This document shows positions 7,159-59,870 of a DNA stretch of 64,000 nucleotides, in pieces. The notes under the pieces are model-generated. The model worked only from the letters and a program-made list of their open reading frames with translations. It was not told the origin of the DNA and ran no database searches. Origin of the DNA: the human T2T-CHM13v2.0 reference genome, Homo sapiens. The translations under genes and the position numbers were made by a program. How positions within the stretch are numbered: position 1 is the first letter of the stretch; each line of letters starts with the position of its first letter. The stretch is from contig CP068257.2 of the NCBI GenBank assembly GCA_009914755.4, positions 2,912,001 to 2,976,000 of the forward strand, in the 5' to 3' direction.

Positions 7159-7470
7159 GGCCGGTTGTGGTGGCTCATGCCTGTATTCCCAGCACCTTGG
7201 GAGGCCAAGGCGGGTGGATCACGAGGTCAGGAGATCGAGACAACCCTGACTAACATGGTGAAACCCCGTCTCTACTAAATATACAAAAAATTAGCCGGGC
7301 ATAGTGGCAGGCGCCTGTATCCCCAGCTACTCAGGAGGCTGAGGCAGGAGAATGGCGTGAACTCAGTGGACAGAGTTTGCAGTGAGCCGAGATCGCGCCA
7401 CTGCACTCCAGCCTGGGCAACAGGGCAAGACTCTGTCTCAAAAAAAAAATAAAAAAAAAAACAAAACGGT
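7159..7470 (+). mobile_element. Alu SINE (S/Y-like) with A-rich tail
   Basis: ggccggttgtggtggctcatgcctgtattcccagcaccttgggaggccaaggcgggtggatcacgaggtcaggagatcgagac…gccactgcactccagcctgggcaacagggcaagactctgtctcaaaaaaaaa. Confidence 0.95.
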
Positions 7471-7809
7471 TATTTTCCATTGTAAATCTATGTTGTATTC
7501 AGGATTTTATGCATGAAAATCTCTCTTCTTATTTTCAATTCCGTGTTATTGTGTTTCTTTTCTTGGGAGTTATGTTTTCTCAGATCAGTTAAATGTATTT
7601 TTATTTTAAAACTTGATATCATCAGTTGAAAGATAATTTTTAGCTCGGTACACTTTATCTCAATGTGATGTTTAATATATGTGTGAATTAGCTGTGTTTG
7701 TTGCTTATAGATATATCTGTATGTTTTTCACTTATGTAAGTATGACATCTTTTTCCTTGTTTTTTTTTTTTTTTTTCAGTTTCAGATAGGCTTTTTTTTT
7801 TTTTTTAAG

Positions 7810-8879
7810 AGAATTTTAAAACAGAGTCGAAAGAAGAGAAATCAGTTATTTGTCCTCTTGCAGGGTGGGGAGACAACTTCCTTCCCCACAGGTTTGAGGC
7901 TATGCCTAAGTGGTGAGTCTTGAGGAGATGCAGAAAGGATCCATCCCAGGCACTTGGCTGGACTTAAGTAAGCATAGCCTTTGGGCCACAAGACCTGATG
8001 GTTTGGGTACTGGTCTGGACATAAGTCCCCATCTTCCCAGAAATATCGTCTTTTGTCTGCAACAACTGGCTGGAGAAATATTTCAGAAAGATATGTGTCT
8101 GGAACACCCAAAGGCATACTTTTCCTTTCTCCTTGGCATAGGCCTTGCAGCACTGAAGAAAGACCAGGTTTGCAATGGAGCCTTCAACAGTCTTCATCCC
8201 TATGGAACTCAGGGTCTCATAGGGTGACAGGAGAGGAGACAAAGCTAACTTGGGAAGAGTCTTTGTCCTTCAGCTTCTCCCCTACTGAAACACTATATAT
8301 TGGGCCCACAGTTCATCACAAAACACACATGCTCTCTTTCTTTCTCTCACACCCACATCTTGGGAACCCAAAAAACTTGATGGCAGGTAGCTCTGGGTAT
8401 CCTTGGTCTGGCATTCACCCACTGGGAATCTAAGCTGTCCTAAAGCTCTTTTCAATCACTTCTCACTGTTTCCAGGCCCATGTGGGTAGGTGTTCCAGGC
8501 TTCATTCTTTCAGGCTGATCATAAAGGCACAGTGTGGGAAAATCCCCTACTGTGATGGCCATTGCTGGGAAGCAGGAAAGGCTAAGGGCCCACTGCTGCC
8601 CAAGGCTAGTGTAGACACCCTCTGCTCCACTCATGTCCTCAAAGACTGATATCAGGTGCAGCAGCTGCTGTCTGGAATGTTATCAAACCAGGACTGCACA
8701 GGCACTGCATTCTCTGTGTGGAAGACATAAGAAGCAGGCGAGTTGTCCAGGATGAGAGTTTTCCTCAGGTCCCTCCCCAGATGGCTGAGGTCATTGACAT
8801 AGCAGCCCTGGTGGAACAAACGTAACTCATGCGCTAGGCAACCCGAGAACACCTCACACTGGTCCAGCACACCCATCAC
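7810..8879 (-). pseudogene. CTDSP2: Processed pseudogene of CTDSP2 (CTD small phosphatase 2), 3' portion: C-terminal coding homology 8583-8879 plus putative 3'UTR remnant down to the poly-T at ~7770-7808
   Basis: Minus-strand translation gives …[71 protein letters not shown], then a frameshift, then SGAEGVYTSLGQ. This aligns residue-for-residue with the FCP1/NIF phosphatase domain of CTDSP2 as I recall it ([75 protein letters not shown]). No introns are present, and the frame is broken by a 1-nt deletion and a lost stop. The 3'UTR extent and poly-A assignment are inference. Confidence 0.8.
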
Positions 8880-8881
8880 AA

Positions 8882-10200
8882 TGTGTCTGGAATTGGTGGG
8901 TTCTTGTTCTCACTGACTTCAAGAATGAAGCCACAGACCCTCACGGTGAGTGTTACAGTTCTTAAAGGTGGCATGTCTGGAGTTTGTTCCTTCTGACATT
9001 CGGATGTGTTGAGAGTTTCTTCCCTCTGGTGGGCTCGTGGTCTCGCTGGCTCAGGAGTGAAGCTGCAGACGTTCGCGGTGAGTGTTACAGCTCTTAAGGT
9101 GGCACATCTGGAGTTGTTCATTCCTCCAGGTGGGTTCGTGGTCTCGCTGGCTTCAGGAGTGAAGTTGTGGACCTTCACAGTGAGTGTTACAGCTCATAAA
9201 GGCATTGTGGACCCAAAGAGTGAGCAGCAGCAAGATTTATTGCAAAGAGCAAAAGAACAAAGCTTCCACAGTGTGGAAGGGGACCCGAGTGGGTTGCCAC
9301 TGCTGGCTGGGGCAGCCTACTTTTATTCCCTTATCTGGCCCCACCCACATCTTGCTGATTGTTAGAGCCGAGTGGTCTTTTTTCACAGGGCGCTGATTGG
9401 TGTGTTTACAATCCCTGAGCTAGACACAAAGGTTCTCCACATCCCCACCAGTGTAGCTAGATACAGAGTGTTGATTGGTGCATTCACAAACCCTGAGCTA
9501 GACACAGGGTGCTGGTTGGCATGTTTACAAACCTTGAGCTAGATACAGAGTGCTGATTGGTGTATTTACAATCCCTGAGCTAGACACAAAGTTTCTCCAC
9601 GTCCCCACAAGACTCAGGAGCCCAGCTGGCTTCACCCAGTGGATCCCCCACAGGGTCTGCAGGTGTAGCTGCCTGCCAGTCTGGCACTGTGCACCCGCAC
9701 TTCTCAGCCCTTGGGTGGTTGATGGGACTGGGTGCCGTGGAGCAGGGGGTGGCACTCATCCAGGAGGCTTGGGCACACAGGAGCCCACGGATGGTGGGGA
9801 GGCTCAGGCATGGCAGGCTGCAGGACCCGAGCCCTGCCCTGTGGGAAGGCAGCGAAGGCCCAGAGAGAAATTGAGCACAGCAGCTGCTGGCCGAGGTGTT
9901 AAGCCCCTCACTGCCTGGGGCCGGTGGGGCCAGCCGGCGGCTCCAAGTGCGGGGTCCGCCGAGCTCGCGCTGGCCTGCAAGCACTGCACGCCGCCCTGGT
10001 TCCCACACGCACCTCTCCCTCCACACCTCGTCGCAAGCTGAGGGAGCCGTCTCTGACCTTGGCCAGCCCTGAAAGGGGCTCCCACAGTGCAGCGACAGGC
10101 TGAAGGGCTCCTAAAGTGCCGCCAAAGTGGGAGCCCAGGCAGAGGAGGCCCCGAGAGCAAACAAGGGTTGTCAGGACTGCCAGCACGCTGTCACCTCTCA
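8882..10200 (+). mobile_element. Solo LTR12 (HERV9 LTR, LTR12C-like) inserted into the CTDSP2 pseudogene
   Basis: Diagnostic LTR12 sequence is visible (…aattggtgggttcttgttctcactgacttcaagaatgaagccacagaccctcacggtgagtgttacag…gagcagcagcaagatttattgcaaagagcaaaagaacaaagcttccacag…). There are four ~40-bp U3 tandem repeats at ~9390-9600 (ctgattggtgtgtttacaatccctgagctagacaca…), then the GC-rich R/U5 ending …cagcacgctgtcacctctca. Pseudogene sequence resumes exactly at both edges with a short ACA/CACA duplication. Confidence 0.85.
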
Positions 10201-10985
10201 ACAGGATCTGCATACTTGTTCAGGCTGGAATGAAGAGAGCAATGAAGAAAACACATTTAAACAGTTCCTCCAGTCATCTCAGGAACTCATCCATATAAGG
10301 CCTCATGGTCCCCTCAATCTTTACAGTCACTACGCAGTCAGCATTGCTGATTGGCTTAATGGAGCTATGCACAAGGGTTTCATCCATGTCAGTGACCATA
10401 CACATTGTTCCTTGATTTTTCTCTGTCACCTCTGGGAGCAGGCAGGTCCCTGGGATCTGATAAAACTGATACTGGAGACCCTGGAGCTGATCCGACTTAG
10501 CAATGGTGTTGACTCCCTCCTTATGTGTGGAGAACTCAGTGGGGGAACTTGACTTGCCAACATGCTGGGTGCAAGAACAGCAGAAAGTTACCTTCTAAGA
10601 TGTGACAAACATGAGACCTCTTCGGAGAGCACTTTGGAAACCAGGCCTTGCTTGCTAAGGACCAGGGCATCTTCCCTCCATGCCTGGGTGGTGATGGAGC
10701 CTGGTTCCATCTAACAATCCTGAGGGCTCGGCTGGCTGGGTGGGAAGACAGCGGGCACGTTGGCTGGACTGGGCTGGGGGGCATGGGCTGGGGCCTGATT
10801 CAGTTCCCGAGAGTCTGACTTCCACAGCTGTTCACATACCCCTTCTCCTTTCCATCACAGGCCGGGAAGGGAGGCGGCCTGTAGGGACGGTGGACGGCCT
10901 TGGCAGCAGCTCCCCAGGGTGCCCCCAGCCCCAAATCCCCCAGCAGGAGCTTCAGGATCCTCAGTTTGGGTCTAACATAGGGAAT
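10201..10985 (-). pseudogene. CTDSP2: Processed pseudogene of CTDSP2, 5' portion: N-terminal coding homology 10201-10710 (ATG at 10708-10710) plus putative 5'UTR remnant
   Basis: Reverse-complement translation gives MEPGSITTQAWREDALVLSKQGLVSK…FCC.CTQHVGKSSSPTEFSTHKEGVNTIAKSDQLQGLQYQFYQIPGT…ETLVHSSIKPISNADCVVTVKIEGTMRPYMDEFLR.LEELFKCVFFIALFI…LNKYADPV. This matches the CTDSP2 N-terminus (MEHGSIITQARREDALVLTKQGLVSK…IAKSDLLQCLQYQFYQIPGT…[26 protein letters not shown]…[31 protein letters not shown]). The coding homology ends exactly at the LTR12 junction. Confidence 0.8.
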
Positions 10986-13519
10986 CCACCTCATACTCAT
11001 GTTTTTTCAAGTTTTATTTTAAGTTCAGTGGTCCATATGTGATAAGCTTTTTTTTCAACTTTTATTTTAAGTTTAGGGGTCCATGTGCAGGCTATGCAGG
11101 TCTCTTACATAGATAAACGTGTGCCATTGTGGTTTACTGCACAGATCATCTCATCACCTAGGTACTAAGCCCAGCATCTGCAGCTATTCTTCCTGCTGCT
11201 CTCCTTCCCCTCCCCCATGCCATGAAACAGGTGTCCAGTGTGTGTTGTTCTTCCTGATGTGTCCATGTGTTCTCATTGATCTGCTTCTGCTAACAAGTTA
11301 GAATAATAATAGGTGGTGTTTGGTTTTCTGTTCCTGCATTAGTTTGCTGGGAGTAATGGCTTCAAATTCCAACCATGTCCCTGCAAAGGACATCATCTCA
11401 TTACATTTTATGGCTTCACAGTGTTCCATGGTGTATGTGTACCACATTTTCTTTATCCAGTATATCATTGATGGGCATGTAGATTGATTACATGACGTTG
11501 CTATTGTAAATATTGCTGCAATGAACATATGTATACATGTTTATTTAAAATAGATTTATATTCCTTTAGGTGTATGCCCAGTAATAGTATTGCTGGGTCA
11601 AATGGTATTTCTGCTTCTAGGTCTTTGAGGAATCTCTGCACTCTCTTCCACAATGCTTGAAATAATTTACAATCCCACCAACAGTGTAAAAGTGTTCCCT
11701 TTTCTCCACAACCTCACCAGCATCTGTTTTTATTTCTTTTTTACTTTTTATTAATAGATATTGTAATTGGTGTGAGATGGTATCTCATTGTTGTTTTGAT
11801 GTGTATTTATCCAGTTATCAGTGATGTTGAGCTTTCCATGTTTGTTGGGCACATGTATGTCTTCTTTTGAGATATGTCTGTTCATGTCCTTTGACCACTT
11901 TTTAATGAGGTTGTTTGTTTTTCTCTTGTAAATTTTAAGTCCCTCATAGATTCTGGGTATTACACATTTGTCAGATGAATAGGTTGCAAAATTTTTCTCC
12001 CATTCTCTAGCTTTTCTGCTCTGATGATAGCTTCTTTGGCTCTGCAGAAGCTCTTTAGTTTAATTAGACCCCATTAGTCAATTTTTGCTTTTGTTGCTAT
12101 TTCTTTTGGTCTTTTTGTCATCAAATCTTTCCTCATGCCTATATCCTGAATGGTATTATCTAGATTTTTTCTTCTAAGGTTTTTATAGTTTTGGGTTTTA
12201 CATTCAAGTCTTTAATCCATCTTGAGTCAATTTTTGTCTATGGTGTTAGGAAGGGTTCCAGTCTTAATTCTCTGCACATGACTAGCCAGTTATCCTAGCA
12301 CCATTTATTGAATAGGGAGACTTTTCCCTAATTGTTTTTTTTGTTGACTTTGTCAAATATCAGGTTGTTGAAGGTTTTTGTCTTTATTTCTATGCTCTCT
12401 ATTTTGTTTCATTTGTCTATGTGTCTGTTTCTATACCAGTACCATGCTGTTTTTGTTACTGTACTCTTCTAGTACAGTTTGAAGTTAGGCAATGACACTT
12501 TCAGCTTTTTTTTTTTTTTCTTAAGGTTGGCTTGGCCATTTGGGCTCTTTTTTGGTTCCATATGGATTTTAAAAAGTTTTTTTTTTCTAATTATCTGAAG
12601 AATGTCAGTAGTTCAATGGGAACAGCATTGAATCTATAAATTACTTAGGGCAATATGCTCATATTCGTGGTACTGATTCTTTCTCTCCATGAGCATGGAA
12701 TGTTTCTCCATTTGTTTTGTGTCCACTCTGTTTCCTCTGAGTAGTTGTTTGTAGTTCTCCTGGAAGATATCCTTCACTTTCCTTCTTAGCTGTATTCCTT
12801 GGTATTTTTTTCTCTTTATAGCAAATGTGAATGAAAGTTCATTCACGATTTGTCTCCCTGCTTGCCTGTTGCTTGTGTATGGGAATGCTTGCTACTTTTG
12901 CACATTGATTTTATATCTTGAGATTTTGCTACTGCTGCTTATCACCTTAAGAAGCTTTGGGGCTGAGACGAAGAGGCTTTCTAGATATAGGGTCAGGTCA
13001 TCTGTAAACAAAGATAATTTGACTTTCTCTCTTTCTATTTGAATACTCTTTATTTCTTCCTCTGGCCTGATTTTCGTGGACAAGGTTTCCGAATGGGAGT
13101 TGTAATGGGAGTGGTGAGAGAGAGCATATTTTTCTTGTGCCGGTTTTCAGGGGGAATGTTTCCAGCTTTTGCACATTCAGTATGATATTGGCTGTGGGTT
13201 TGTTGTATATGGCTCTTATTATTTTGAGGTATGTTTCTTCAGTTCCTAGTTTATTGAGAATTTTAAACGTGAAGGAATGTTGAATTTTATTGGGTACTTT
13301 TTCTGCATCTATTGAGGTAATCATGTGGTTTTTTTATTTAGTTTTCTTTATGTGATGAGTCACATTTGTTGATTTGCATATGTTGAATCAACCTGGCATC
13401 CTGGGGACAAAGCCAATTCCATTGTGGTGGATGCACTTTTTAATGTGCTGCTGGGTTTGGTTTGCCAGTATTTTATTGAGGATGTTTGCACAGTGTTCAT
13501 CAAAGACATTGGCATGATG

Positions 13520-27254: not shown

Positions 27255-30200
27255 AGTGGCCTAGGCCAGGAATATTTCTTCTAATGCTATCCCTCCCATA
27301 GTCCCCCACTTCCCGACAGGCTCCAGTGTGTGATGTTCCCCTTCCTGTGTCCGTGTGTTCTCTTTGTTTAACTCCCTATTATGAGTGAGAACATGCGATG
27401 TTAGCTTTTCTACTCTTGTGTTAGTTTGCTAAGAATGGTGGTTTCCAGCTTCATCCATGTCCCTGCAAAGGACATGAACTCATCCTTTTTATGACTGCAT
27501 CGTATTCCATGATGTGGACATGCCAAGTTTTCTTTATTCAGTCTATCATTGATGGTCATTTGGTTTGTTTCAAAGTTTTTGCTCTTGTGAACAGTGCCAT
27601 AATAAACATACGTATGCAGGTATCTTTATAATAGAATAATTTATAATCCTTTGGGTATATACCCAGTAATGTGATTGCTGGGTCAAATGGTATTTCTCAT
27701 TGTGGATCCTTGAGGAATCACCACACAGTCTTCCACACTGGTTGAACTAATTTACACTCTCACCAACAGTGTATAAGTCTTCCTATTTTTCCACATCCTT
27801 TGTTGTTTCCTGATTTTTTTAATGATCACCATTCTAACAGGTGTGGGATGGTTTCTCATTGTGTTTTTGATTTGCATGTGTCTAATAACCAGTGATGATG
27901 TCCTTTTCTTCATTTGTTTATTGGCTGCATAAATGTCTCCTTTTGAGAAGTGTCTGTTCAAATCCTTTGCCCATTTTCGATGTTGTTGTTTCTTTTTTTC
28001 TTGTAAATTTGTTTAAGTTCTTTGTAGATTCTACATATCAGCCCATTGTCAGATGGATAGATTGCAGAAATTTTCTCCCATTCTTTAGGTTGCCTGTTCA
28101 CTCTGATATAGTTTTTTTTGTTGTGCAGAAGCTCTTTAGTTTAATTATATCTCGTTTGTCAATTTTGGCTTTTGTTGCCATTGTTTTTGGTGTTGTAGTC
28201 ATGAAGTCTTTGCCCATGCCTATGACCTGAATGGTACTGCCTTGGTTTTCTTCTGGGGTTTTTATGGTTTTAAGTCTTATGTTTAAGTCTTTAATCCATC
28301 TTCAGTTATGTTTTGTATAACGAGTAAGGAAGAAGTCCAGTTTCAGTTTTTTGCATATGGCTAGCTAGTTTTCCAACACCATTTATTAAATAGGGAATCC
28401 TTTCCCCATTACTTGTTTTTGTCAGGTTCATCAAAGATCAGATGATTCTAGATGTTGAGTGTTATTTCTGAGGCCTCTGTTCTGTTCCATTTGTCAATAT
28501 ATCTGTTTTGGTACGAGTACCATCCTGTCTTGGTTACTGTGGCCTTTTAGTATAGTTTGAAGACAGCTAGCATGATGCCTCCACCTTTGTTCTTTTTGCT
28601 TAGTATTGTCTTGTCTATGCAAGACCTTTTTTGATTCCATATGAAATTTGAAGTAGTTTTTTTTCTAATTCTGTGAAGAAAGTCAACGGGAGCTTGATGG
28701 GGATAGCAATGAATTTTTAAATTACTTTGGGCAATATGGCCATTTTCATAATATTGATTCTTTCTATCCATGAGCATGGATTGTTTTCATTTGTTTGTGT
28801 CCTCTTTCATTTCCTTGAGCAGTGGTTTGTAGTTCTCCTTGAAGTGGTCCTTTACATCATTTTTAAGTTGGATTCCTAGGTATTTTATTCCCTTTGTAGC
28901 AATTGTGAATGAGAGTTAACACATGATTTGGCTCTCTGTTTGCCTATTATTGCGTATAGGAATGCTTGTGATTTTTGAACATTGATTTTGTATCCTGAGA
29001 CTTTGCTGAAGTTGCTTATCAGTTTAAGGAAATTTTGGGCTAAGATGGTAGGGTTTTCTAGATATACAATCATGTCATCTGCAAACAAAGACAATTTGAC
29101 TTCTCTTCCTATCTGAATACGCTTTATTTCTTTCTTTCTTTGGCTGATTGCCAGAACTTCCAATACTATAATGAATAGGAGTGGGGAGAAAGGGTGTTCT
29201 TGTCTTGTGCAGGTTTTCAAAGGGAATGCTTCCAGTTTTTGCCCATTCAGTATGATATTAGCTGTGCATTTGTCATAAATAACTCTTATTATGTTGAGAT
29301 AGGTTCCATCAATACATAATTCATTGAGAGTTTTTACCATGAAGAGGTGTGGAATTTTATTGAAGGCCTTTTTTGCATCTATTGAGATAATCATGTGGTT
29401 TTTGTCATTAGTTCTGTTTATGTGATGGATTTTATTTATTGATTTGCATATGTTGAACCAGCTTTGTATCCCAGGGATTAAGCTGACTAGATCGTGGTGG
29501 ATAAGCTTTTTGATGTGCTGCTGGATTCGGTTTGCCAGTATTTTATTGAGGATTTTCGCATCGATATTCATCAGGGATATGGGCCTGAAATTTTCTTTTT
29601 CTGGTGTGTCTTTGCCAGGTTTTGGTTTCAGGATGATGCTGGCCACATAAAATGAATTAGGGAGGAGTACCTCTTTTTCTATTGTTTGAAATAATTTCAG
29701 AAGGAATGGTACCAGCTCCTCTTTGTACCTTTGGTAGAATTCGGCTGTGAATCCGTCTGGTCCTGGACTTCTTTTTGTTGGTAGGCTACTAATTACTGCC
29801 TCAATTTTAGAACTTGTTATTGGCCTATTCAAGGATTCGACTTCCTACTGGTTTGCACTTGGGAGGGTATATGTGTCCAGGAATTTATCCATTTCATCTA
29901 GATTTTCTAGTTAATTTGTAAAGAGGTATTTATAATATTCTCTAATGATACTTTTTATTTCTGTGGGATCAATGGTTATATCCCCTTTATCATTTCCTAT
30001 TGCATGTATTTGATTCTTCTCTTCTTCCTTATTAGTCTGGCTAGAAGTTTATTTATTTTCTTGATCTTTTCAAAAAACCAGCTCCTGGATTCATTGATTT
30101 TTTTGGACGGGCTTTTTGTGTCTCTATCTCCTTCAGTTCTGCTCTGATCTTAAATCTTGTCTTCTGCTAGTTTTTGAATTTGTTTGCTCTTGCTTCCCTA

Positions 30201-51369: not shown

Positions 51370-54300
51370 ATGAAAAAGAGACTGGGAATGACTATATTAA
51401 TAGCAGACAAAATAGACTTAAAAACTTAAAAGAGACAATAAGACATTATATAGTCATAGATTGTCCATTTGGCAGGAAGATAGAAATAGTTTAAACCCAT
51501 ACCTAATAATAAAACATTGAGATATAGAAAGCATAACTTGACAGAATTAAAGGGGCAAAAAGGCAGTTCTAAAATAATAGTTGAAGATGTTAATACTCCA
51601 CTCTGAGTAATGAATAGAAAAATGAGATAGATGATAAATTAGGAAATAGAGTTCTTGAATAACTCAATGAACCAAATTGATCTAACAGATATATACAATA
51701 TACTCCATCCAACAAAAGAGACTACACACACTTCTCAAATGCACATGGGGATTTCCCCACGATGGGCTGTGTAGTAGATCTCAAATTAAATCAATAACAG
51801 AAGAAACGTTAGAAAGTTTACAAAACTGTATAAATTAAACAACATACCCTTAAACAACAAATAAGTAAAGGAAGAAATCACAGAGGAAGTTGGAACATAC
51901 TTACAGAGGAAGAAAAATGAAAACAAAACACATCAAAAGTTAAGGGAAACAGCAAAAAGAGTGCTAAGATGTAAAGTTTGCAGCTAAAATACATTTAAAA
52001 AGAACAAAGATTTCAAATAAATAATAACTTTATCACCTAGTAAATTAGAAAAATAACACCAAATTAGATGCAAAGCAAAGAGAAAGAAGAACATATTAAA
52101 GCTTTTAGCAGAGATAAATGCAATGGAGATTATACAAACCACAGAATTCCAAAAAACCAAAAGTTCATTCTCACTTCTTCAAAAAATTAACAATTGGCAA
52201 ACTTTCAGCTACACACACAAAAAATTAACAGCATATTCACATACTAAAATGAGAAATGAAAGTGGGACATTACTACTAATTCAAAGAATTAAAATGTTTA
52301 AAAAACTGTACTGTGAACTATGATAGGATGATAAATTGGAAAACGTAGATAAAGTGGGCAGATTCCTAGGTATACAAGACTTGATTACAAAGAAATACAA
52401 AATCTGAATAGATACAAAACTACTAAGGAAATGGAATCAGTAATTAAAAGCCTCCTCATAAAGAAAAGCCCTTATTTTGTTGGCTTCACTAGTGATTTAG
52501 ATCAAGCATTTATAGAACAAAAATCCTTTCCAAAGTCTACCAAAAGCCTGAACAGAGCAGTTCCAAACTTATTCCATGAAGCCACCATTAGCTCATACCG
52601 AAGCCAGACAAAGATACTACAAAAACCCATAGACTAATATCCCTTATGAACACGGAGGCAAAACTAGTCAGCAACATCCTAGCTAACTACATTCAGCAGC
52701 ATACTAGCAAGATTACAACCCATGACCAAGGGGAGTTTATTATTGGAATGAAAGGAAGTTTTAGCATATGGGTGGTTTCAGTGCAGTGGTGTTTACAAAT
52801 AATTGATCACAACCAGTATAGATTTCTTTATTCTTTTTCCAGTCTCACTGGTTCACTTAGCTAGCCTTTCTTAACAAAAGTTTAAGCATATGAAAATTAA
52901 TCAATGCATATGCCACATTGACAAACTTTTTAAAAAGTATTCTCTCATTAATACAGATAACGTATTTTACAAAATTCAAAATATTTTATAATAAAAACAA
53001 TAAATTAGGAATAAAAGGAAACCAGCTTTGTAAAATTCACATATAAAAACCCACAGCAAACAACATATTCCAGAGGAAAAGATCAAAAGAGTTTCCTCTA
53101 AGCTCTGAAGACAGAGTGAATATCTGCTCTTGCCAGCCACTTTTATTCAACACTGTATTAGAAGTTTCATTCAGAGAAATTAAAAAAGACAATGAAATAA
53201 ACTGCATCAAAGTGTGTACAGAAAATATATTCTTATATGTAGAAAATCTTTAAGATTCCACACAAAAAATATTACAACTAATAAATTCAGCTGAATAGTA
53301 GCATACAAAATCAACATACAAAAACAAACTGCATTTTATGTAGTAACATGAATAATCTGAGAAGAAAACTCTGAAAACAATTCAATTTACAATAGTATCA
53401 AAAGAATAAAGTAGTTAGGAAGTAACGAAGAAGTAAAATGCCAATTACTCTTGTGTAGATATTAAAAAATCAATTTTTAAGTTTATGGGGAATCTCAAAG
53501 ATCTTTAAATTGCAAAAATAATTTTGAAAAAAATACCAAAGTTAGACAAGTCACACTTAATGATTTCAAGACTTACTACAAAATTCCAAAATAGCATGCT
53601 ACAAAGAGACTAATGGAGTAATATAGAAGGCCCATATAAATAAACCCTCATATATAAGGTCAAATGATTTTTATGGGAAATGAACTGCCTTTACAACAAT
53701 TAGTGCTGGGGAAATTGGGTGCCCACATGTAAAAGAGTGAAGCTGGGCCCTTAACTTCTACTATAAGAAAAAATTAACTAACTGGATCAAAGACCTAAAT
53801 GTAAGAGCTAAAACTACAAAATTCTTACTATAAAATGTAGGTAAAACACGTCATAAGGCTGGATTTGGCAGTGATTTCTTTTAACAGGGCACCAAAAACG
53901 CAAGAAACAAAAGAAAAATAAATAAAGAGGACTCTATCCAGAATATACAAAGAACAATTCAGCAATAATAAACTACTTGTTTAAAATATGGGCAAAATAC
54001 TTAAACAGATATTTCTCTAAAAATTATGTGAAGTGGCTTATAAGCCCATGAAAAGGTACTCAACAAAACCTTTTCATTTTCATTAGTAAAATGAAAATCT
54101 AACCCCAAATGACATATCACTTAATGCACATCAGCATAACTAGTACAAAAAGAAAAAAAAAACAGAAAATCACAAGTGTTGGTGAGGAAGTGGAGCAGTT
54201 AGAACCCTTGTACACTTGGTGGAAATGTAAAATGCTGCAGCTGCTATAAAACAACACCATAGTAACGAAATAATTTACACTCAAAATCACCGTATGATCC

Positions 54301-56974: not shown

Positions 56975-59870
56975 ACGGGAGAATTCCAGCATGCACCAGG
57001 TTCACGGGACAGTGCGCGGTCACTGAAAGAAGAGTGGGGCGGGGAGGGTGGTGTGCGGCTGTGAGCACCTCTTGTGCTTGCTGGGAGATGTAGTCTTATA
57101 AAGACTCCCAGCCCTTTGGTCACAGGGCTGCAGCACCCCAATTCCAGCATACACCGGAATCAGAGACAGTGCGCGCTGGCAGAGGAAGAGGTAGAGCTGT
57201 GCGTGACTCGCTGGGCTTGATGGAAAATGTAATCTCATGAACACTCCTTAATGAACAGTGCGCCTCACTGGAGGAAAAGGCGGGGCTGTGCAGGCCTTGC
57301 TTTGCTTGCTGAGAGATGCTGTCTCATAAACACTCCCAGCCCTTTGGTCACAGGGCTGCAGGACTACATTCCCATCATGCACCGGGATCAGGGATAGTGC
57401 ATGTGCCTGGGTGAAGAGACACAGTTTTGCGAGCCTCCTTTGGCTTCCTGGGAGATGTAGTTTCATAAAGACACCCAGACTTTTCATTACAGGGCAGCCG
57501 GACTACAATCCCAGTATGCACCAAGATCAAGGATAGTGCGCGTAACTGCAGAATGAGGCGGCATTGTGCACGCCTCGCTGGACTTGGTGGGATATGTATT
57601 CTCATAAACATACCCAACCCTTTGGTCATAGGGCGGGAAGACTACAATCCCAGCATGCACCTGGCTAAGAGACAGTGCCTGTCACTGGAGGAAGAGGCGG
57701 AAGACTACAATCCCAGCCAGCACCGGGCTCAGGGAAATTGTGCGTCAGTGGAGGAAGAGGCGGGGTTGTGTGCTACTCGCCAGGCTTGCTGGGAGTTGTA
57801 TTCTCATAAAACCTCCCAGCCCTTTCATCACAGGGCTGAAGGACTACACTTCCAGCCCCAGCATGCACTGGGCTCAGGGACAGCGCGCGTCACTGGAGGA
57901 AGAGGGAGGGCTTTGCGCTTCTATCTGTGATTTTTTGGGAGATGTAGTCTCATTAACGCTCCCAGCCCTTTGGTCACAGAGATCCAGGACTGCAATCCCA
58001 ACATGCACCCAGCTCAGGGATAGTGCGCTAATCACTGCAGGAAGAGGCAGGGCTGTGTGCACCTCCTGGGCGTACTGGGAGATGTATTCTCATAAACACT
58101 CCCATCCCTTTGGTCATAAGGCTGCAGGACTACAATCCTAGCATGCACCCAGCTCAGTGACAGTGCGCTAGTCTAAGGAGAAAGAGGCAGGGCAGTGTGC
58201 GCCTTGCTGGGCTTCCTGGGAGATGTAGTCCCATGGCGTCTCCCTGCCCTATGGTCACAGTGCTATAAGACTACAATCCCAGCATGCACGGGGCTCAGGG
58301 AGAGTCCACATCACTGCAGAAAGAGGGGCAGGTTGTGCGCACCTCGCTGCGTTTGCTGGGAGATGTTGTTTCATAAAGACTCTCAGACCTTTTGTCACAG
58401 GGCTACAGGACTACAATCCCAGGATGCATCGGGATCAAAGCAGTATGCGACACGGGGAAAAGATGCGGAGCTGTGTGCGTCTCCCTAGGTCTTCTGGGAG
58501 ATGTGGTCTCTTGGCCCTTTGGTCACAGGGCTGCAGGACTACAATGCCAGCATGCAGCGGGTTCATGGACAGTGTGTATCACTGGAGGAAGACGTGGAGC
58601 TGTGCGTGCCTCGCTGGGCTTGCAGGGAGATGCAGTCTCATAACTACCCCAGTCGTTTGGTCGCAGGGCTGCAGCAGTACAATTTCAGCATATCTCTGGC
58701 TCAGGGAGAGTGCACTAGTCACTGAAGGAAGAGGTAGGTCTGTGCGCACCTCTCTGGGCTTGCTGGGAGAGGTAGTCTCATAAACACTACCAGCCCTTTC
58801 ATCACATCGCTGTAGGACTACAATTCCAGCATGCACGGGGCGCCGGGGCAGTCCGCCTCACTGGAGGAAGAGAAAGGCGTGTGAGCGCCTTGCTGGGCTT
58901 TCTGGGAGATGTTGTCTCTTTATTTCTCCCAGCCCTTTGGTCACAGGGCTTCAAGACTACAATCCCAGCATGCATCCTGCTCAGGGACAACGCGCGTCAC
59001 TGTAGGAAGAGGTGGACCTGTGCTGTTCTCGCTATGCTTTTTGGGATACGTATTCTCGTAAACACTCCCAGCCCTTTGGTCACTGGGCTGCATCACTACA
59101 ATCCCAGCATACATCGGGATCAGGGAGAGTGCGCTAATCAGTGGAGAAAGGGGCCAGGCTCTGCACACCTCGCTGGTCTTGCTGGGAGATGCAGTCTCAT
59201 AAACACTCCCAGCCCTTTGGTCACTGGGCTGCAGCGCTACAATCCTAGCATGGACCGGGCGCAGGGAATGTGCGCGTCACTGGAGGAAGAGGCAGGGTTG
59301 TGCAAGCCTCTCTGGGCTTGGTGGGAGTTGCAGTCTCATAAACACTCCCAGACCTCTCATCACCGGGCTGCAGGACTACAATCCCAGCATGCACCCGGCT
59401 CAGGGAGAGTGCGCATTACTGGAGGAAAAGTCTAGGCTGTGGATGCCTCCTTCTGCTTGCTGGGAGATGTAGTTTCATAAAGACTCCCAGAACTTGTGTC
59501 ACAGGGCTGCAGGACTACCATCCCATTATGCACTGGGGTTAGGGACACGGCCCGTCAGTGGAGAAAGAGGCGGGGCTGTGTGCGTCTCCTTCGGCTTGCT
59601 GGGAGATGTATTCTTATAAACACTCCCAGCCCTTTGGTCAAAGGGCTACAGGACTACAATCCCAGCATGTGCCAGTCTCGGGGGCGAGGTACAGGCCTGG
59701 AAGAAGGGGCAGAGTGGTACACGCCCCACCTAATATGCTGGGAGCTGTAGTCTGTTAACTGCTCTCAGCCTGTTTGTCGGTAGGCTTCAGAACTATAATC
59801 ACAGCATGTACCGGGACCCGGGGTGCATAGCCCTGGAGGGAGGGGCAGAGCGGTGTGGACTTCCCGGTGT
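56975..59870. repeat. Unclassified tandem array, ~20 diverged units of ~140 bp (satellite/VNTR-like), each unit carrying inverted ACTACA-N-CCCAGCA motifs and a GC box
   Basis: The anchor 'cccagccctttggtcacagggctgcaggactacaatcccagcatgcacc' or close variants recurs at ~57110, 57340, 57476, 57612, 57816, 57961, 58101, 58243, 58384, 58514, 58650, 58799, 58929, 59068, 59208, 59348, 59488, 59627 and 59764. Spacing is mostly 130-149 bp, and two partial units lie near 57230 and 57690. Approximate unit consensus: gcttgctgggagatgtagtctcataaacactcccagccctttggtcacagggctgcaggactacaatcccagcatgcaccgggctcagggacagtgcgcgtcactggaggaagaggcggggctgtgcgcacctcgctgg. The periodic short ORFs on both strands in the ORF track are a side effect of the repetition. 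Confidence 0.9.

What the first reader, a model, noticed from the sequence alone, without database searches (positions are those of the whole stretch)
7810..10985. CTDSP2 processed pseudogene bisected by a solo LTR12 (HERV9 LTR) insertion
Seen directly: minus-strand coding homology to CTDSP2 is continuous across what would be several exons, with no introns. It covers the N-terminus (MEPGSITTQAWREDALVLSKQGLVSK…) through the FCP1/NIF catalytic core (…[13 protein letters not shown]…WFDN…) to the C-terminus (…SGAEGVYTSLGQ), with frameshifts. It is cut after the codons for …KYADPV by a complete LTR12, and coding homology resumes immediately on the far side. This gives an insertion order of retrocopy first, then LTR12. 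The LTR12 is in plus orientation, so its promoter points antisense to the retrocopy and into the downstream minus-strand L1. From established knowledge, LTR12C copies are strong cryptic promoters that are reactivated by HDAC/DNMT inhibitors and in testis, so antisense transcripts covering CTDSP2-like sequence are plausible. The sequence also includes the 3'UTR-homologous region where the parent gene's microRNA target sites lie.
Basis: partly seen in the sequence, partly recalled or inferred. Interest (0 to 1): 0.5.

Follow-up and report, generated by a model that had tools for sequence, protein, structure and literature searches.

The report
Dead CTDSP2 retrocopy split by LTR12
This is an old, dead processed copy of the CTDSP2 phosphatase gene later split by a single retroviral LTR (LTR12/ERV9); such nesting is ordinary in primate genomes, but the LTR points the same way as the gene copy, not against it as first claimed.

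Summary
The structure is confirmed. On the minus strand, 10987→7792 holds an intronless, polyadenylated copy of CTDSP2 mRNA: 5'UTR, all 8 coding exons, and 779 nt of 3'UTR. It is 85% identical to macaque CTDSP2 mRNA. CTDSP2 is clearly the parent (PDB 180.6 bits against 147.4 for CTDSPL and 145.8 for CTDSP1).

The copy is dead. It has 5 frameshifting indels, a 21-bp deletion and 2 premature stops, and its substitutions are spread evenly over codon positions.

A complete 1319-bp solo LTR12 (8882-10200, TG…CA) sits in exon 7, straight after KYADPV. It is flanked by a 4-bp duplication (CTGT/TTGT), and no pseudogene sequence is missing. Host-DNA contigs from metagenomes carry a paralogous copy of the same retrocopy without the LTR. 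That copy has a single CTGT, so the order was retrocopy first, then LTR.

Every strand-specific LTR12 landmark lies on the minus strand: CCAAT/GATA U3 repeats, AATAAAA, the TSS motif GCCAGCAGTGGC at 68% of the length, AATAAA, and the U5 repeats. The promoter (TSS about 9300) therefore points leftwards. It reads in sense through the pseudogene's 3' half, not antisense, not into the L1, and not from 10.0-10.2 kb.

No expression or function is shown. This is an ordinary nested repeat of low interest.

The parts
10711..10987 (-). Retrocopy: CTDSP2 5'UTR-homologous segment. The true 5' end may extend to about 11001.
   Evidence: The bat CTDSP2 upstream region L001 5712-6065 aligns to window 10987-10646 at 78% identity, E 5e-75. 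The macaque 5'UTR is mostly an assembly gap.
10201..10710 (-). Retrocopy: 5' half of the CDS. It runs from the ATG at 10710 through exons 1-6 and the first 18 nt of exon 7, ending with the codons for KYADPV.
   Evidence: The alignment to reconstructed macaque mRNA crosses junctions at mRNA 112, 261, 300, 402, 459 and 552 without introns; ungapped identity is 84.7%. Indels are +1, +1, -21 and +11. Stops fall at codons 38 and 152.
10201..10204 (-). LTR target-site duplication, 5' copy (CTGT in sense).
   Evidence: The parent reads CCCTGTGACAG. The paralogue L008 has a single CTGT.
8882..10200 (-). Solo LTR12 (ERV9 LTR), 1319 bp, complete, sense strand = minus. It reads TGAGAGGTGACAGC…CCAGACACA.
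   Evidence: An independent LTR12 in L005 starts at the same base. There is no ERV internal sequence, and retrocopy sequence abuts both ends.
9612..10200 (-). LTR U3, GC-rich 5' extension of about 590 nt (67% GC for 9620-10200).
   Evidence: PMC11853044 describes an extension of about 600 nt in LTR12C/D/E.
9385..9611 (-). LTR U3 enhancer, made of ~41-nt E repeats. It carries CCAATCA three times (5' bases at 9560, 9478, 9400), the GATA site TCTGTATCTAGCT twice (9549, 9467) and GTGGGGA twice (9608, 9448).
   Evidence: TRF reports period 41 x 3.4 at 9455-9592. Self-BLAST gives 9385-9611. All motifs lie on the minus strand.
9296..9333 (-). LTR core promoter: the TATA-like AATAAAA (9327-9321) and the TSS motif GCCAGCAGTGGC (9307-9296). 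The TSS motif sits at 67.7% of the LTR length, measured from 10200.
   Evidence: The review places the TSS in this motif at about 70% of the length, with AATAAAA about 30 nt upstream.
8882..9302 (-). LTR R-U5. It contains the poly(A) signal AATAAA (9241-9236) and three B-type repeats (8895-9202).
8878..8881 (-). LTR target-site duplication, 3' copy (TTGT in sense, one C>T difference).
   Evidence: The same flanks are seen in contigs L006 and L007.
8582..8877 (-). Retrocopy: 3' half of the CDS (rest of exon 7 plus exon 8, with the parental stop homologue TAG at 8584-8582).
   Evidence: The alignment crosses the exon 7/8 junction. Two 1-nt deletions are present.
7807..8581 (-). Retrocopy: proximal 779 nt of the CTDSP2 3'UTR.
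   Evidence: Homology ends at macaque L003 31252, while the parent gene continues.
7792..7806 (-). Retrocopy poly(A) tail (A15).
   Evidence: The tail is longer and interrupted in paralogue L008.
7785..7791 (-). Candidate 3' copy of the retrocopy's L1-type TSD (GCCTATC, directly after the A tail).
   Evidence: It matches A8-GCTTATC at 11050-11036 (15 nt, 1 mismatch). This is an inference, not a proof.
10997..11042 (-). Candidate 5' TSD copy (GCTTATC, 11042-11036) followed by a second 38-nt copy of an L1 3' terminus plus A6, lying between the old L1 and the CTDSP2 5'UTR.
   Evidence: This segment is absent from paralogue L008, which has one hybrid L1-end copy.

Best explanation
The feature is a nested pair of retroelement insertions with no demonstrated function.

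Step 1 (shown). A spliced, polyadenylated CTDSP2 mRNA with a short 3'UTR of about 780 nt was reverse-transcribed and inserted on the minus strand, next to the poly(A) end of an older minus-strand L1. This is the L1-type processed-pseudogene mechanism. The copy then decayed neutrally.

Step 2 (inferred from host-DNA contigs). The locus, flanks included, was duplicated. This gave two paralogues that now differ by about 6%.

Step 3 (shown). An ERV9 provirus integrated into the window's copy, 18 nt into exon 7 and in the same orientation as the retrocopy. It made a 4-bp target-site duplication, CTGT. LTR-LTR recombination then left a solo LTR12 of 1319 bp (recombination inferred from the solo state with an intact TSD).

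The LTR keeps an intact-looking core promoter: the AATAAAA box, the GCCAGCAGTGGC initiator motif, and three CCAAT and two GATA enhancer motifs. If it is ever derepressed, it would start transcription at about 9300 and read leftwards. It would pass through U5 and, in sense, through the 3' 1.07 kb of the pseudogene (the C-terminal NIF half plus the 3'UTR), reaching the first poly(A) signals at about 7676 and 7605. That transcript is a prediction and has not been observed.
For: Parent and intronless structure:
- PDB bit scores are 180.6 for CTDSP2, 147.4 for CTDSPL and 145.8 for CTDSP1.
- Nearly all of the 120 best database hits are CTDSP2.
- Exon blocks spread over 23 kb in macaque abut each other in the window.
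- The exact exons were reconstructed, and the alignments cross all 7 junctions.
- 5'UTR homology reaches 10987. The A15 tail follows the last homologous base.

Pseudogene status:
- Divergence is 15.1%.
- Substitutions by codon position are 46/34/49.
- CDS indels are +1, +1, -21, +11, -1 and -1, and there are 2 premature stops.

LTR identity and orientation:
- All landmarks from PMC11853044 lie on the minus strand in the expected order and spacing.
- An independent LTR12 copy has the same 5' terminus.

Insertion rather than rearrangement:
- The two retrocopy halves overlap by exactly 4 nt of parental sequence, CTGT/TTGT.
- The LTR-less copies L008-L011 read GATCCTGTGACGGG, with one CTGT, and share the retrocopy's private 11-nt insertion.
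- They also share 198 substitutions and 15 indels with the window's copy.

Paralogy:
- Contigs from five samples contain blocks of both types, with different switch points.

Timing:
- The review states that ERV9 entered primate genomes about 30 My ago, expanded in great apes and stopped about 6 My ago.
- That fits an LTR insertion after the A/B split, where each lineage has diverged by about 3%.
Against: - The 4-bp TSD has one mismatch (CTGT against TTGT).
- The retrocopy's own TSD is not clean.
- The LTR-less sequence comes from anonymous metagenome contigs whose host species is unknown. Calling it a paralogue rather than an orthologue rests on mosaic contigs and on a match to published human RNA variants.
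- The LTR12 subfamily (C, D or E) could not be assigned without Dfam or Repbase.
- No expression data were available, so promoter activity is purely predicted.
- The LTR has only 3 intact CCAAT boxes, and its CpG content is depleted (observed/expected 0.34).
- In the one human dataset looked at indirectly (A375 variants), the observed states match the other, LTR-less copy and not this one.
Confidence: 0.9

Rival explanations
1. One reading: the LTR12 lies in plus orientation, so its promoter fires antisense to the retrocopy and rightwards into the minus-strand L1, with TSSs at about 10.0-10.2 kb.
For: LTR termini (TG…CA) are symmetric and do not reveal the strand. The review notes that some LTR12 copies drive bidirectional transcription. 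GGTGAGT-like motifs occur on the plus strand in the U5 repeats.
Against: The plus strand carries no CCAAT, no GATA-site, no TSS-motif, no AATAAAA and no AATAAA. The minus strand carries 4, 2, 1, 1 and 2 of these respectively, in the canonical 5'→3' order U3 extension, E repeats, TATA, TSS (68%), poly(A) signal, U5 repeats. The 10.0-10.2 kb region is the extreme 5' end of U3.
Confidence: 0.04
2. The interruption reflects a rearrangement or deletion that brought an LTR between two CTDSP2-like fragments, rather than a simple integration into an intact retrocopy.
For: The TSD is imperfect (3 of 4 bases match, which alone has about a 5% chance expectation).
Against: Parental sequence is continuous across the junction with an exact 4-nt overlap and nothing missing. 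An LTR-less copy with the same private mutations has a single CTGT. A Colobus gene model, P0031, which shares 23 of 83 derived residues, reads YADPVTGLLDRCGVF straight through the site.
Confidence: 0.02
3. The LTR-less contigs (L008 type) are the orthologous locus of another primate, such as an Old World monkey, rather than a paralogue in the same genome as the window.
For: L008 is uniformly 5-8% diverged from the window across the retrocopy, with colinear flanks. That is the distance expected between hominoids and Old World monkeys. The review says many LTR12 copies are absent from macaques. A Colobus protein model of the retrocopy exists.
Against: Contigs from five samples and three projects are mosaics of long A-type and B-type blocks with different breakpoints, so both types occur in the same samples. 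Of the 9 CTDSP2 'RNA variants' published for the human A375 line, 8 equal the L008 state, including L008-specific C180Y and V182M. Either reading gives the same conclusion about the order of insertion.
Confidence: 0.2
4. The CTDSP2-like sequence is a functional retrogene, or encodes a truncated NIF-domain protein (the 74-aa ATG ORF at 8876-8652) expressed from the LTR.
For: An ATG ORF of 74 codons starts 2 nt from the LTR junction and matches Pfam NIF in a contig gene call.
Against: The ORF lacks the catalytic DxDxT half of the domain. Six upstream ATGs lie between the predicted TSS and this ATG. Substitutions are evenly spread over codon positions, and there are multiple frameshifts and stops. 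The paralogue carries different lesions.
Confidence: 0.02

Closest known systems
L1-mediated processed pseudogenes (retrocopies) of housekeeping genes
   Same: The copy is intronless and colinear with mRNA from the 5'UTR to a poly(A) tail. It sits at an A-rich target beside an L1 tail and has decayed neutrally with frameshifts and stops.
   Different: The TSD is not clean. The window's lineage carries an extra 38-nt L1 3'-end piece at the 5' side, which may reflect a template-switch chimera or a later 47-bp duplication. The 3' end lies at a site with no canonical poly(A) signal in the macaque gene.
Solo LTR12 (ERV9 LTR; LTR12C/D/E-like) elements of great-ape genomes
   Same: It has TG…CA termini, a GC-rich 5' extension, ~41-nt E repeats with CCAAT/GATA/GTGGGGA, the AATAAAA box, the GCCAGCAGTGGC TSS motif at about 70% of the length, an R poly(A) signal, U5 B repeats, and a 4-bp TSD as in class I ERVs.
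   Different: It has only about 4-5 E repeats and 3 intact CCAAT boxes. The subfamily could not be assigned here. No evidence of activity is available.
LTR12C-initiated cryptic transcripts induced by DNMT/HDAC inhibitors, and LTR12-derived lncRNAs or miRNA sponges (reviewed in PMC11853044)
   Same: The core promoter looks intact and is oriented towards downstream non-LTR sequence, here CTDSP2-like 3'UTR sequence in sense.
   Different: This is purely hypothetical for this copy. No CAGE or RNA-seq data were examined. The indirect human RNA evidence points to the LTR-less paralogue instead.
CTDSP2-like (CTDSP2L) copies in the CtBP2L-KRT18L-CTDSP2L cluster near the tip of chromosome 7p, and their copies in chimpanzee Y palindromes (PMC3308322)
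   Same: Both are CTDSP2-derived '-like' sequences present in more than one copy in ape genomes.
   Different: No KRT18- or CTBP2-like sequence was found in this 64-kb window. Identity with that cluster is therefore unproven, since only 7.8 kb lies to the left of the retrocopy.

Membership tests
Processed pseudogene of CTDSP2 | Colinear with spliced mRNA, with all introns absent | tested here: met
   All 7 coding exon junctions are crossed without interruption, against exons reconstructed from the macaque gene.
Processed pseudogene of CTDSP2 | Parent is CTDSP2 rather than CTDSP1 or CTDSPL | tested here: met
   PDB scores are 180.6 against 147.4 and 145.8 bits. The top database hits are CTDSP2. 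UTR homology is specific to CTDSP2.
Processed pseudogene of CTDSP2 | 3' poly(A) tail not encoded in the parent gene | tested here: met
   A15 lies at 7792-7806, where the macaque gene continues TCTAAACACGG.
Processed pseudogene of CTDSP2 | Flanking L1-type target-site duplication (7-20 bp) | tested here: inconclusive
   The best candidate is (A)nGCTTATC at 11050-11036 against (A)nGCCTATC at 7806-7785. It requires an extra L1-tail piece inside the insert.
Processed pseudogene of CTDSP2 | Loss of coding capacity and neutral evolution | tested here: met
   There are 5 frameshifting indels, a 21-bp deletion and 2 stops. Substitutions by codon position are 46/34/49.
Solo LTR12 (ERV9) | TG…CA termini and full length | tested here: met
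   The LTR spans 8882-10200 and reads TGAGAGG…GACACA in minus sense. An independent copy has the same 5' start.
Solo LTR12 (ERV9) | U3 tandem ~41-nt E repeats with CCAAT, GATA (TCTGTATCTAGCT) and GTGGGGA motifs | tested here: met
   TRF reports period 41 x 3.4. The motifs are on the minus strand only, apart from one stray plus-strand GTGGGGA.
Solo LTR12 (ERV9) | AATAAAA box upstream of the GCCAGCAGTGGC TSS motif, at about 70% of the LTR length | tested here: met
   AATAAAA starts at 9327 and the TSS motif at 9307, which is 67.7% from the 5' end. The criteria come from PMC11853044.
Solo LTR12 (ERV9) | U5 B-type repeats | tested here: met
   Three related copies lie at 8895-9202. Their spacing is 102-132 nt rather than exactly 72.
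Solo LTR12 (ERV9) | Short (4-6 bp) TSD and no internal proviral sequence | tested here: met
   The flanks are CTGT/TTGT, and the LTR-less paralogue has a single CTGT. A 4-6 bp range, with 4 bp for class I families, is reported in PMC1779541.
Solo LTR12 (ERV9) | Subfamily assignment (LTR12C as opposed to LTR12, B, D, E or F) | not testable with these tools
   No Dfam or Repbase consensus is available. The length of 1319 bp and the ~600-nt 5' extension fit C, D or E.
Active LTR12 cryptic promoter (HDACi/DNMTi- or testis-induced) | Observed transcription initiation within the LTR | not testable with these tools
   No CAGE or RNA-seq data were accessible. Only motif integrity and orientation were assessed.

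The most novel reading that the evidence does not exclude
When epigenetically derepressed, the co-oriented LTR12 may drive a sense RNA of about 1.6 kb. That RNA would carry 1.07 kb of CTDSP2-like sequence, including about 780 nt of 3'UTR-like sequence. It could act as a decoy (competing endogenous RNA) for microRNAs or RNA-binding proteins that regulate CTDSP2. It would do so alongside a transcribed LTR-less paralogue whose reads contaminate CTDSP2 'RNA editing' calls.
Probability: 0.04. Interest if true: 0.35.

Novelty: already known. Interest (0 to 1): 0.12.

Why it matters
Little is at stake biologically. Processed pseudogenes interrupted by younger solo LTRs are common in primate genomes and are found routinely by RepeatMasker and pseudogene pipelines.

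Three points have practical value:
- **Orientation.** Any LTR-driven RNA would be sense to the pseudogene's 3' half and would start near 9300, not antisense from 10.0-10.2 kb.
- **Dating.** The locus gives a clean relative dating series: retroposition, then segmental duplication, then ERV9 integration.
- **Variant calling.** A second, LTR-less copy exists whose sequence states coincide with published CTDSP2 'RNA variants' in a human cell line. This is a caution that such calls may be pseudogene mis-mapping rather than RNA editing.

Tried and rejected
- **Colobus locus.** I tried to fetch the Colobus retrocopy locus from protein P0031. It is not on record.
- **75-aa ORF look-up.** An exact look-up of the 75-aa GTG-start ORF at 8652-8879 found nothing. 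The 60-aa ORF at 8452-8634 worked.
- **L008 as a monkey orthologue.** I first read the LTR-less contigs as an Old World monkey orthologue, because divergence was about 7.5%. I revised this to a paralogue after seeing the A/B mosaic patterns and the match to human A375 variants.
- **chr7p cluster.** I tested whether the window is the chr7p CtBP2L-KRT18L-CTDSP2L cluster of PMC3308322. This is neither confirmed nor excluded.
- **Pfam on the L1 ORF.** Pfam did not recognise the degenerate L1 ORF at 12998-13324. PDB ORF2p sequences did, at 2e-26.
- **TRF on U5.** TRF missed the U5 repeats. The repeat finder found them.
- **Other LTR12 copies.** There is none elsewhere in the window or in the CTDSP2 loci for comparison, so the LTR could not be dated against a consensus.
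- **Retrocopy TSD.** A simple flank-to-flank alignment gave only a gapped, A-rich match.
- **Rfam.** The scan gave nothing in the region, and only a Y RNA hit elsewhere.
- **Absolute dating.** This was not attempted rigorously. The divergence figures support only a rough order: retroposition several-fold older than the A/B split, and the LTR younger than that split.
Full report

Yes, in nearly every detail. The region is primate DNA: an Alu lies at 7159-7466 and L1 sequence starts at about 11000.

A conceptual translation of the catalytic region matches solved CTDSP2 (2q5e) at E = 2e-52 and 180.6 bits. CTDSPL scores 147.4 bits and CTDSP1 145.8. In a search of 5.8 billion proteins, essentially all of the 120 best hits are CTDSP2 orthologues. 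Pfam assigns the NIF domain at 114 bits.

**2. Nucleotide-level anatomy**

I fetched a macaque CTDSP2 gene (L003) and reconstructed its eight GT-AG-bounded coding exons so that they reproduce the protein exactly.

BLASTN shows these exons, spread over 23 kb in macaque, as colinear blocks that abut one another on the window's minus strand. Base-by-base alignment shows the following.
- The 5' half (10756→10201) crosses six exon-exon junctions without interruption.
- The 3' half (8881→7807) crosses the seventh junction, the stop codon and 779 nt of 3'UTR.
- Homology stops where an A15 run (7806-7792) begins, whereas the parent gene continues.
- The macaque 5'UTR is an assembly gap, but the bat gene's 5'UTR aligns out to window 10987.

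Only the proximal ~780 nt of the 3'UTR are represented. I saw no canonical AAUAAA upstream of that end in the macaque gene.

**3. It is a dead copy**

Against macaque mRNA the copy differs at 15.1% of sites (K2P 0.171). About half of the parental CpG sites have changed. Substitutions are spread evenly over codon positions (46/34/49). The CDS carries indels of +1, +1, -21, +11, -1 and -1 nt, and two premature stops in the parental frame.

**4. The LTR**

The interruption is 8882-10200, 1319 bp. In minus sense it reads TGAGAGGTGACAGC…CCAGACACA.

A second, unrelated LTR12 copy was captured by chance in the chimeric contig L005. It begins at exactly the same base after an unrelated flank, so the element is complete at its 5' end. 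Retrocopy sequence abuts both ends and there is no internal proviral sequence. It is a solo LTR.

**5.

The LTR12 review PMC11853044 gives strand-specific landmarks:
- U3 tandem ~41-nt E repeats carrying CCAAT, the GATA site TCTGTATCTAGCT and GTGGGGA.
- An AATAAAA TATA-like box about 30 nt upstream of a TSS within GCCAGCAGTGGC, at about 70% of the LTR length.
- Repeats in U5.
- A ~600-nt 5' extension in LTR12C/D/E.

In the window every one of these lies on the minus strand and none on the plus strand.

| Landmark | Position (5' base, minus strand) |
|---|---|
| CCAATCA | 9560, 9478, 9400 |
| GATA site TCTGTATCTAGCT | 9549, 9467 |
| AATAAAA | 9327 |
| TSS motif GCCAGCAGTGGC | 9307 (67.7% of the length from 10200) |
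| Poly(A) signal AATAAA | 9241 |
| E repeats | 9385-9611 |
| Three U5 repeats | 8895-9202 |
| GC-rich 5' extension | 9612-10200 |

The LTR is therefore co-oriented with the retrocopy. Its canonical promoter points leftwards and reads in sense through the 3' half of the pseudogene. It does not point antisense, and it does not point into the L1 on the right. That neighbour is indeed a minus-strand L1, with an ORF2p RT match at 2e-26. The review notes that LTR12C initiation is mainly unidirectional, although some copies are bidirectional. Antisense RNA is therefore unlikely but not formally excluded.

**6. Insertion, not rearrangement**

The 5' half ends …GATCCTGT and the 3' half begins TTGTGATGG…. 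The parent reads GACCCTGTGACAG. The two halves overlap by exactly four parental bases, CTGT/TTGT with one later substitution, and nothing is missing. This is the 4-bp TSD expected of a class I ERV. PMC1779541 reports 4-6 bp in general and 4 bp for the class I families it describes.

An exact look-up of the 60-aa ORF at 8452-8634 then retrieved host-DNA contigs from metagenomes.
- L006 and L007 carry the same 1319-bp LTR with the same flanks.
- L008-L011 join the two halves directly, …GATCCTGTGACGGGTG…, with a single CTGT. They share the retrocopy's private 11-nt insertion.

Relative to the parent, the LTR-less copy (B) shares 198 substitutions and 15 indels with the window's copy (A). Each has only about 3% private change. 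A Colobus gene model (P0031) shares 23 of the 83 retrocopy-specific residues and reads straight through the site.

**7. Paralogue or orthologue?**

I first took L008 for a monkey orthologue, since it is about 5-8% from the window with colinear flanks. Two results argue for a paralogue in the same genome.
- Contigs from five samples are mosaics of long A-type and B-type blocks with different switch points, which suggests assembler chimeras of co-occurring sequences.
- Of nine CTDSP2 'RNA variants' reported in human A375 cells (PMC8632122), eight equal the L008 state, including L008-specific C180Y and V182M. Only four equal the window's state.

This suggests that the LTR-less copy exists and is transcribed in humans, and that those 'variants' are mis-mapped pseudogene reads. 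It gives no sign that the LTR-bearing copy is expressed. I hold paralogy at about 0.8. The order of insertion events is the same on either reading.

PMC3308322 describes a CtBP2L-KRT18L-CTDSP2L cluster at the tip of 7p that was copied into chimpanzee Y palindromes. I found no KRT18- or CTBP2-like sequence in this window, so the link is open. L006 and L007 share 7 differences from the window's LTR. The window's individual or species, or a further close copy, therefore differs slightly.

**8. Ends of the retrocopy**

In the window's lineage, the old L1's A8 tail is followed by GCTTATC. Next comes a second 38-nt copy of an L1 3' terminus plus A6, and then the CTDSP2 5'UTR. After the retrocopy's A15 tail comes GCCTATC. 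Copy B has a single, hybrid L1-end copy.

The most economical reading is an L1-type TSD, (A)nGCYTATC, flanking a chimeric insert made of an L1 tail plus CTDSP2 cDNA, produced by RT template switching, with a later 47-bp recombinational deletion in B. A 47-bp duplication in A cannot be excluded. This point is inferred, not shown.

**9. What an LTR-initiated RNA would look like (prediction only)**

The TSS would be at about 9302. The RNA would contain 420 nt of R-U5 with six upstream ATGs, followed by a 74-codon ATG ORF at 8876 encoding only the non-catalytic C-terminal half of the NIF domain. The 3'UTR-like sequence comes next. The first poly(A) signals past the retrocopy are at 7676 and 7605. 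Translation is improbable. A regulatory-RNA role is speculative.

**10. Verdict**

This is an ordinary nested repeat of a well-known kind: a processed pseudogene of CTDSP2 that was later hit by ERV9 and reduced to a solo LTR12. The LTR orientation is wrong, and so is everything derived from it (antisense transcripts, direction into the L1, TSS location). Interest is low. The side observations in sections 7 and 8 are minor but useful.

Noticed in passing
L008 (whole contig); mosaics L009-L012; corresponds to window 11235-10201 plus 8877-7479: A second copy of the same retrocopy locus exists, with flanks but without the LTR12, about 6% diverged. It occurs in the same metagenome samples as the window-type copy, and assembler mosaics show different A/B switch points. 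It is probably a paralogue from an old segmental duplication.
   Followed up: partly
window 10201-10710 and 8582-8877, compared with L008 and PMC8632122: Eight of the nine CTDSP2 'RNA variants' reported for human A375 cells (R33H, L41P, F45S, A47T, L74Q, C77R, C180Y, V182M) equal the LTR-less copy's states. Only four equal the window copy. Those calls look like mis-mapped pseudogene transcripts rather than RNA editing.
   Followed up: partly
window 10997-11090 and 7785-7806: The 3' terminus of the neighbouring minus-strand L1 is present twice in tandem (11043-11085 and 11003-11042), separated by GCTTAT. A8-GCTTATC upstream matches A15-GCCTATC after the retrocopy tail. This suggests an L1-type TSD around a chimeric insert of an L1 tail plus CTDSP2 cDNA. 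The LTR-less copy has a single hybrid L1 end.
   Followed up: partly
window 7807-7850, compared with L003 31200-31260: The retrocopy ends only 779 nt into the 3'UTR, at a point with no canonical AAUAAA or AUUAAA upstream in the macaque gene. The source transcript's 3' end is unexplained. It could be a weak proximal site or an artefact of priming.
   Followed up: no
window 10286-10308 (mRNA positions 450-470): The 21-bp in-frame deletion spanning the exon 5/6 junction (it removes HQVYVLK) is private to the window's copy. It is absent from the LTR-less copy and from the Colobus model.
   Followed up: partly
window 52770-52870 (+): Rfam Y_RNA match (RF00019) at 42.2 bits, against a gathering threshold of 38, covering the full model length. 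It is most likely one of the many Y RNA retropseudogenes.
   Followed up: no
window 57265-59669: A tandem array with a 139-bp period, about 17 copies at ~72% identity, and a 419-bp higher-order period. It gives rise to spurious long ORFs at 57740-59435.
   Followed up: no
window 12998-13324 (-) and 28885-29832 (-): Degenerate L1 ORF2 reverse-transcriptase fragments lie on the minus strand. The first belongs to the L1 that abuts the retrocopy's 5' end.
   Followed up: partly
window 8882-10200, compared with L006 1052-2370 and L007 737-2055: Two LTR-bearing contigs from different projects share the same 7 differences from the window's LTR (about 0.5%) and a few B-type patches. The window therefore comes from a slightly different haplotype or species, or a third close copy exists.
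   Followed up: no
L005 1-5090: Contig L005 is chimeric. Its LTR 3' part and downstream sequence match the window at 99%. Upstream of about LTR position 580 it switches to a different LTR12 copy (72% identity) with an unrelated flank. That copy was useful only as an independent marker of the LTR12 5' terminus.
   Followed up: yes
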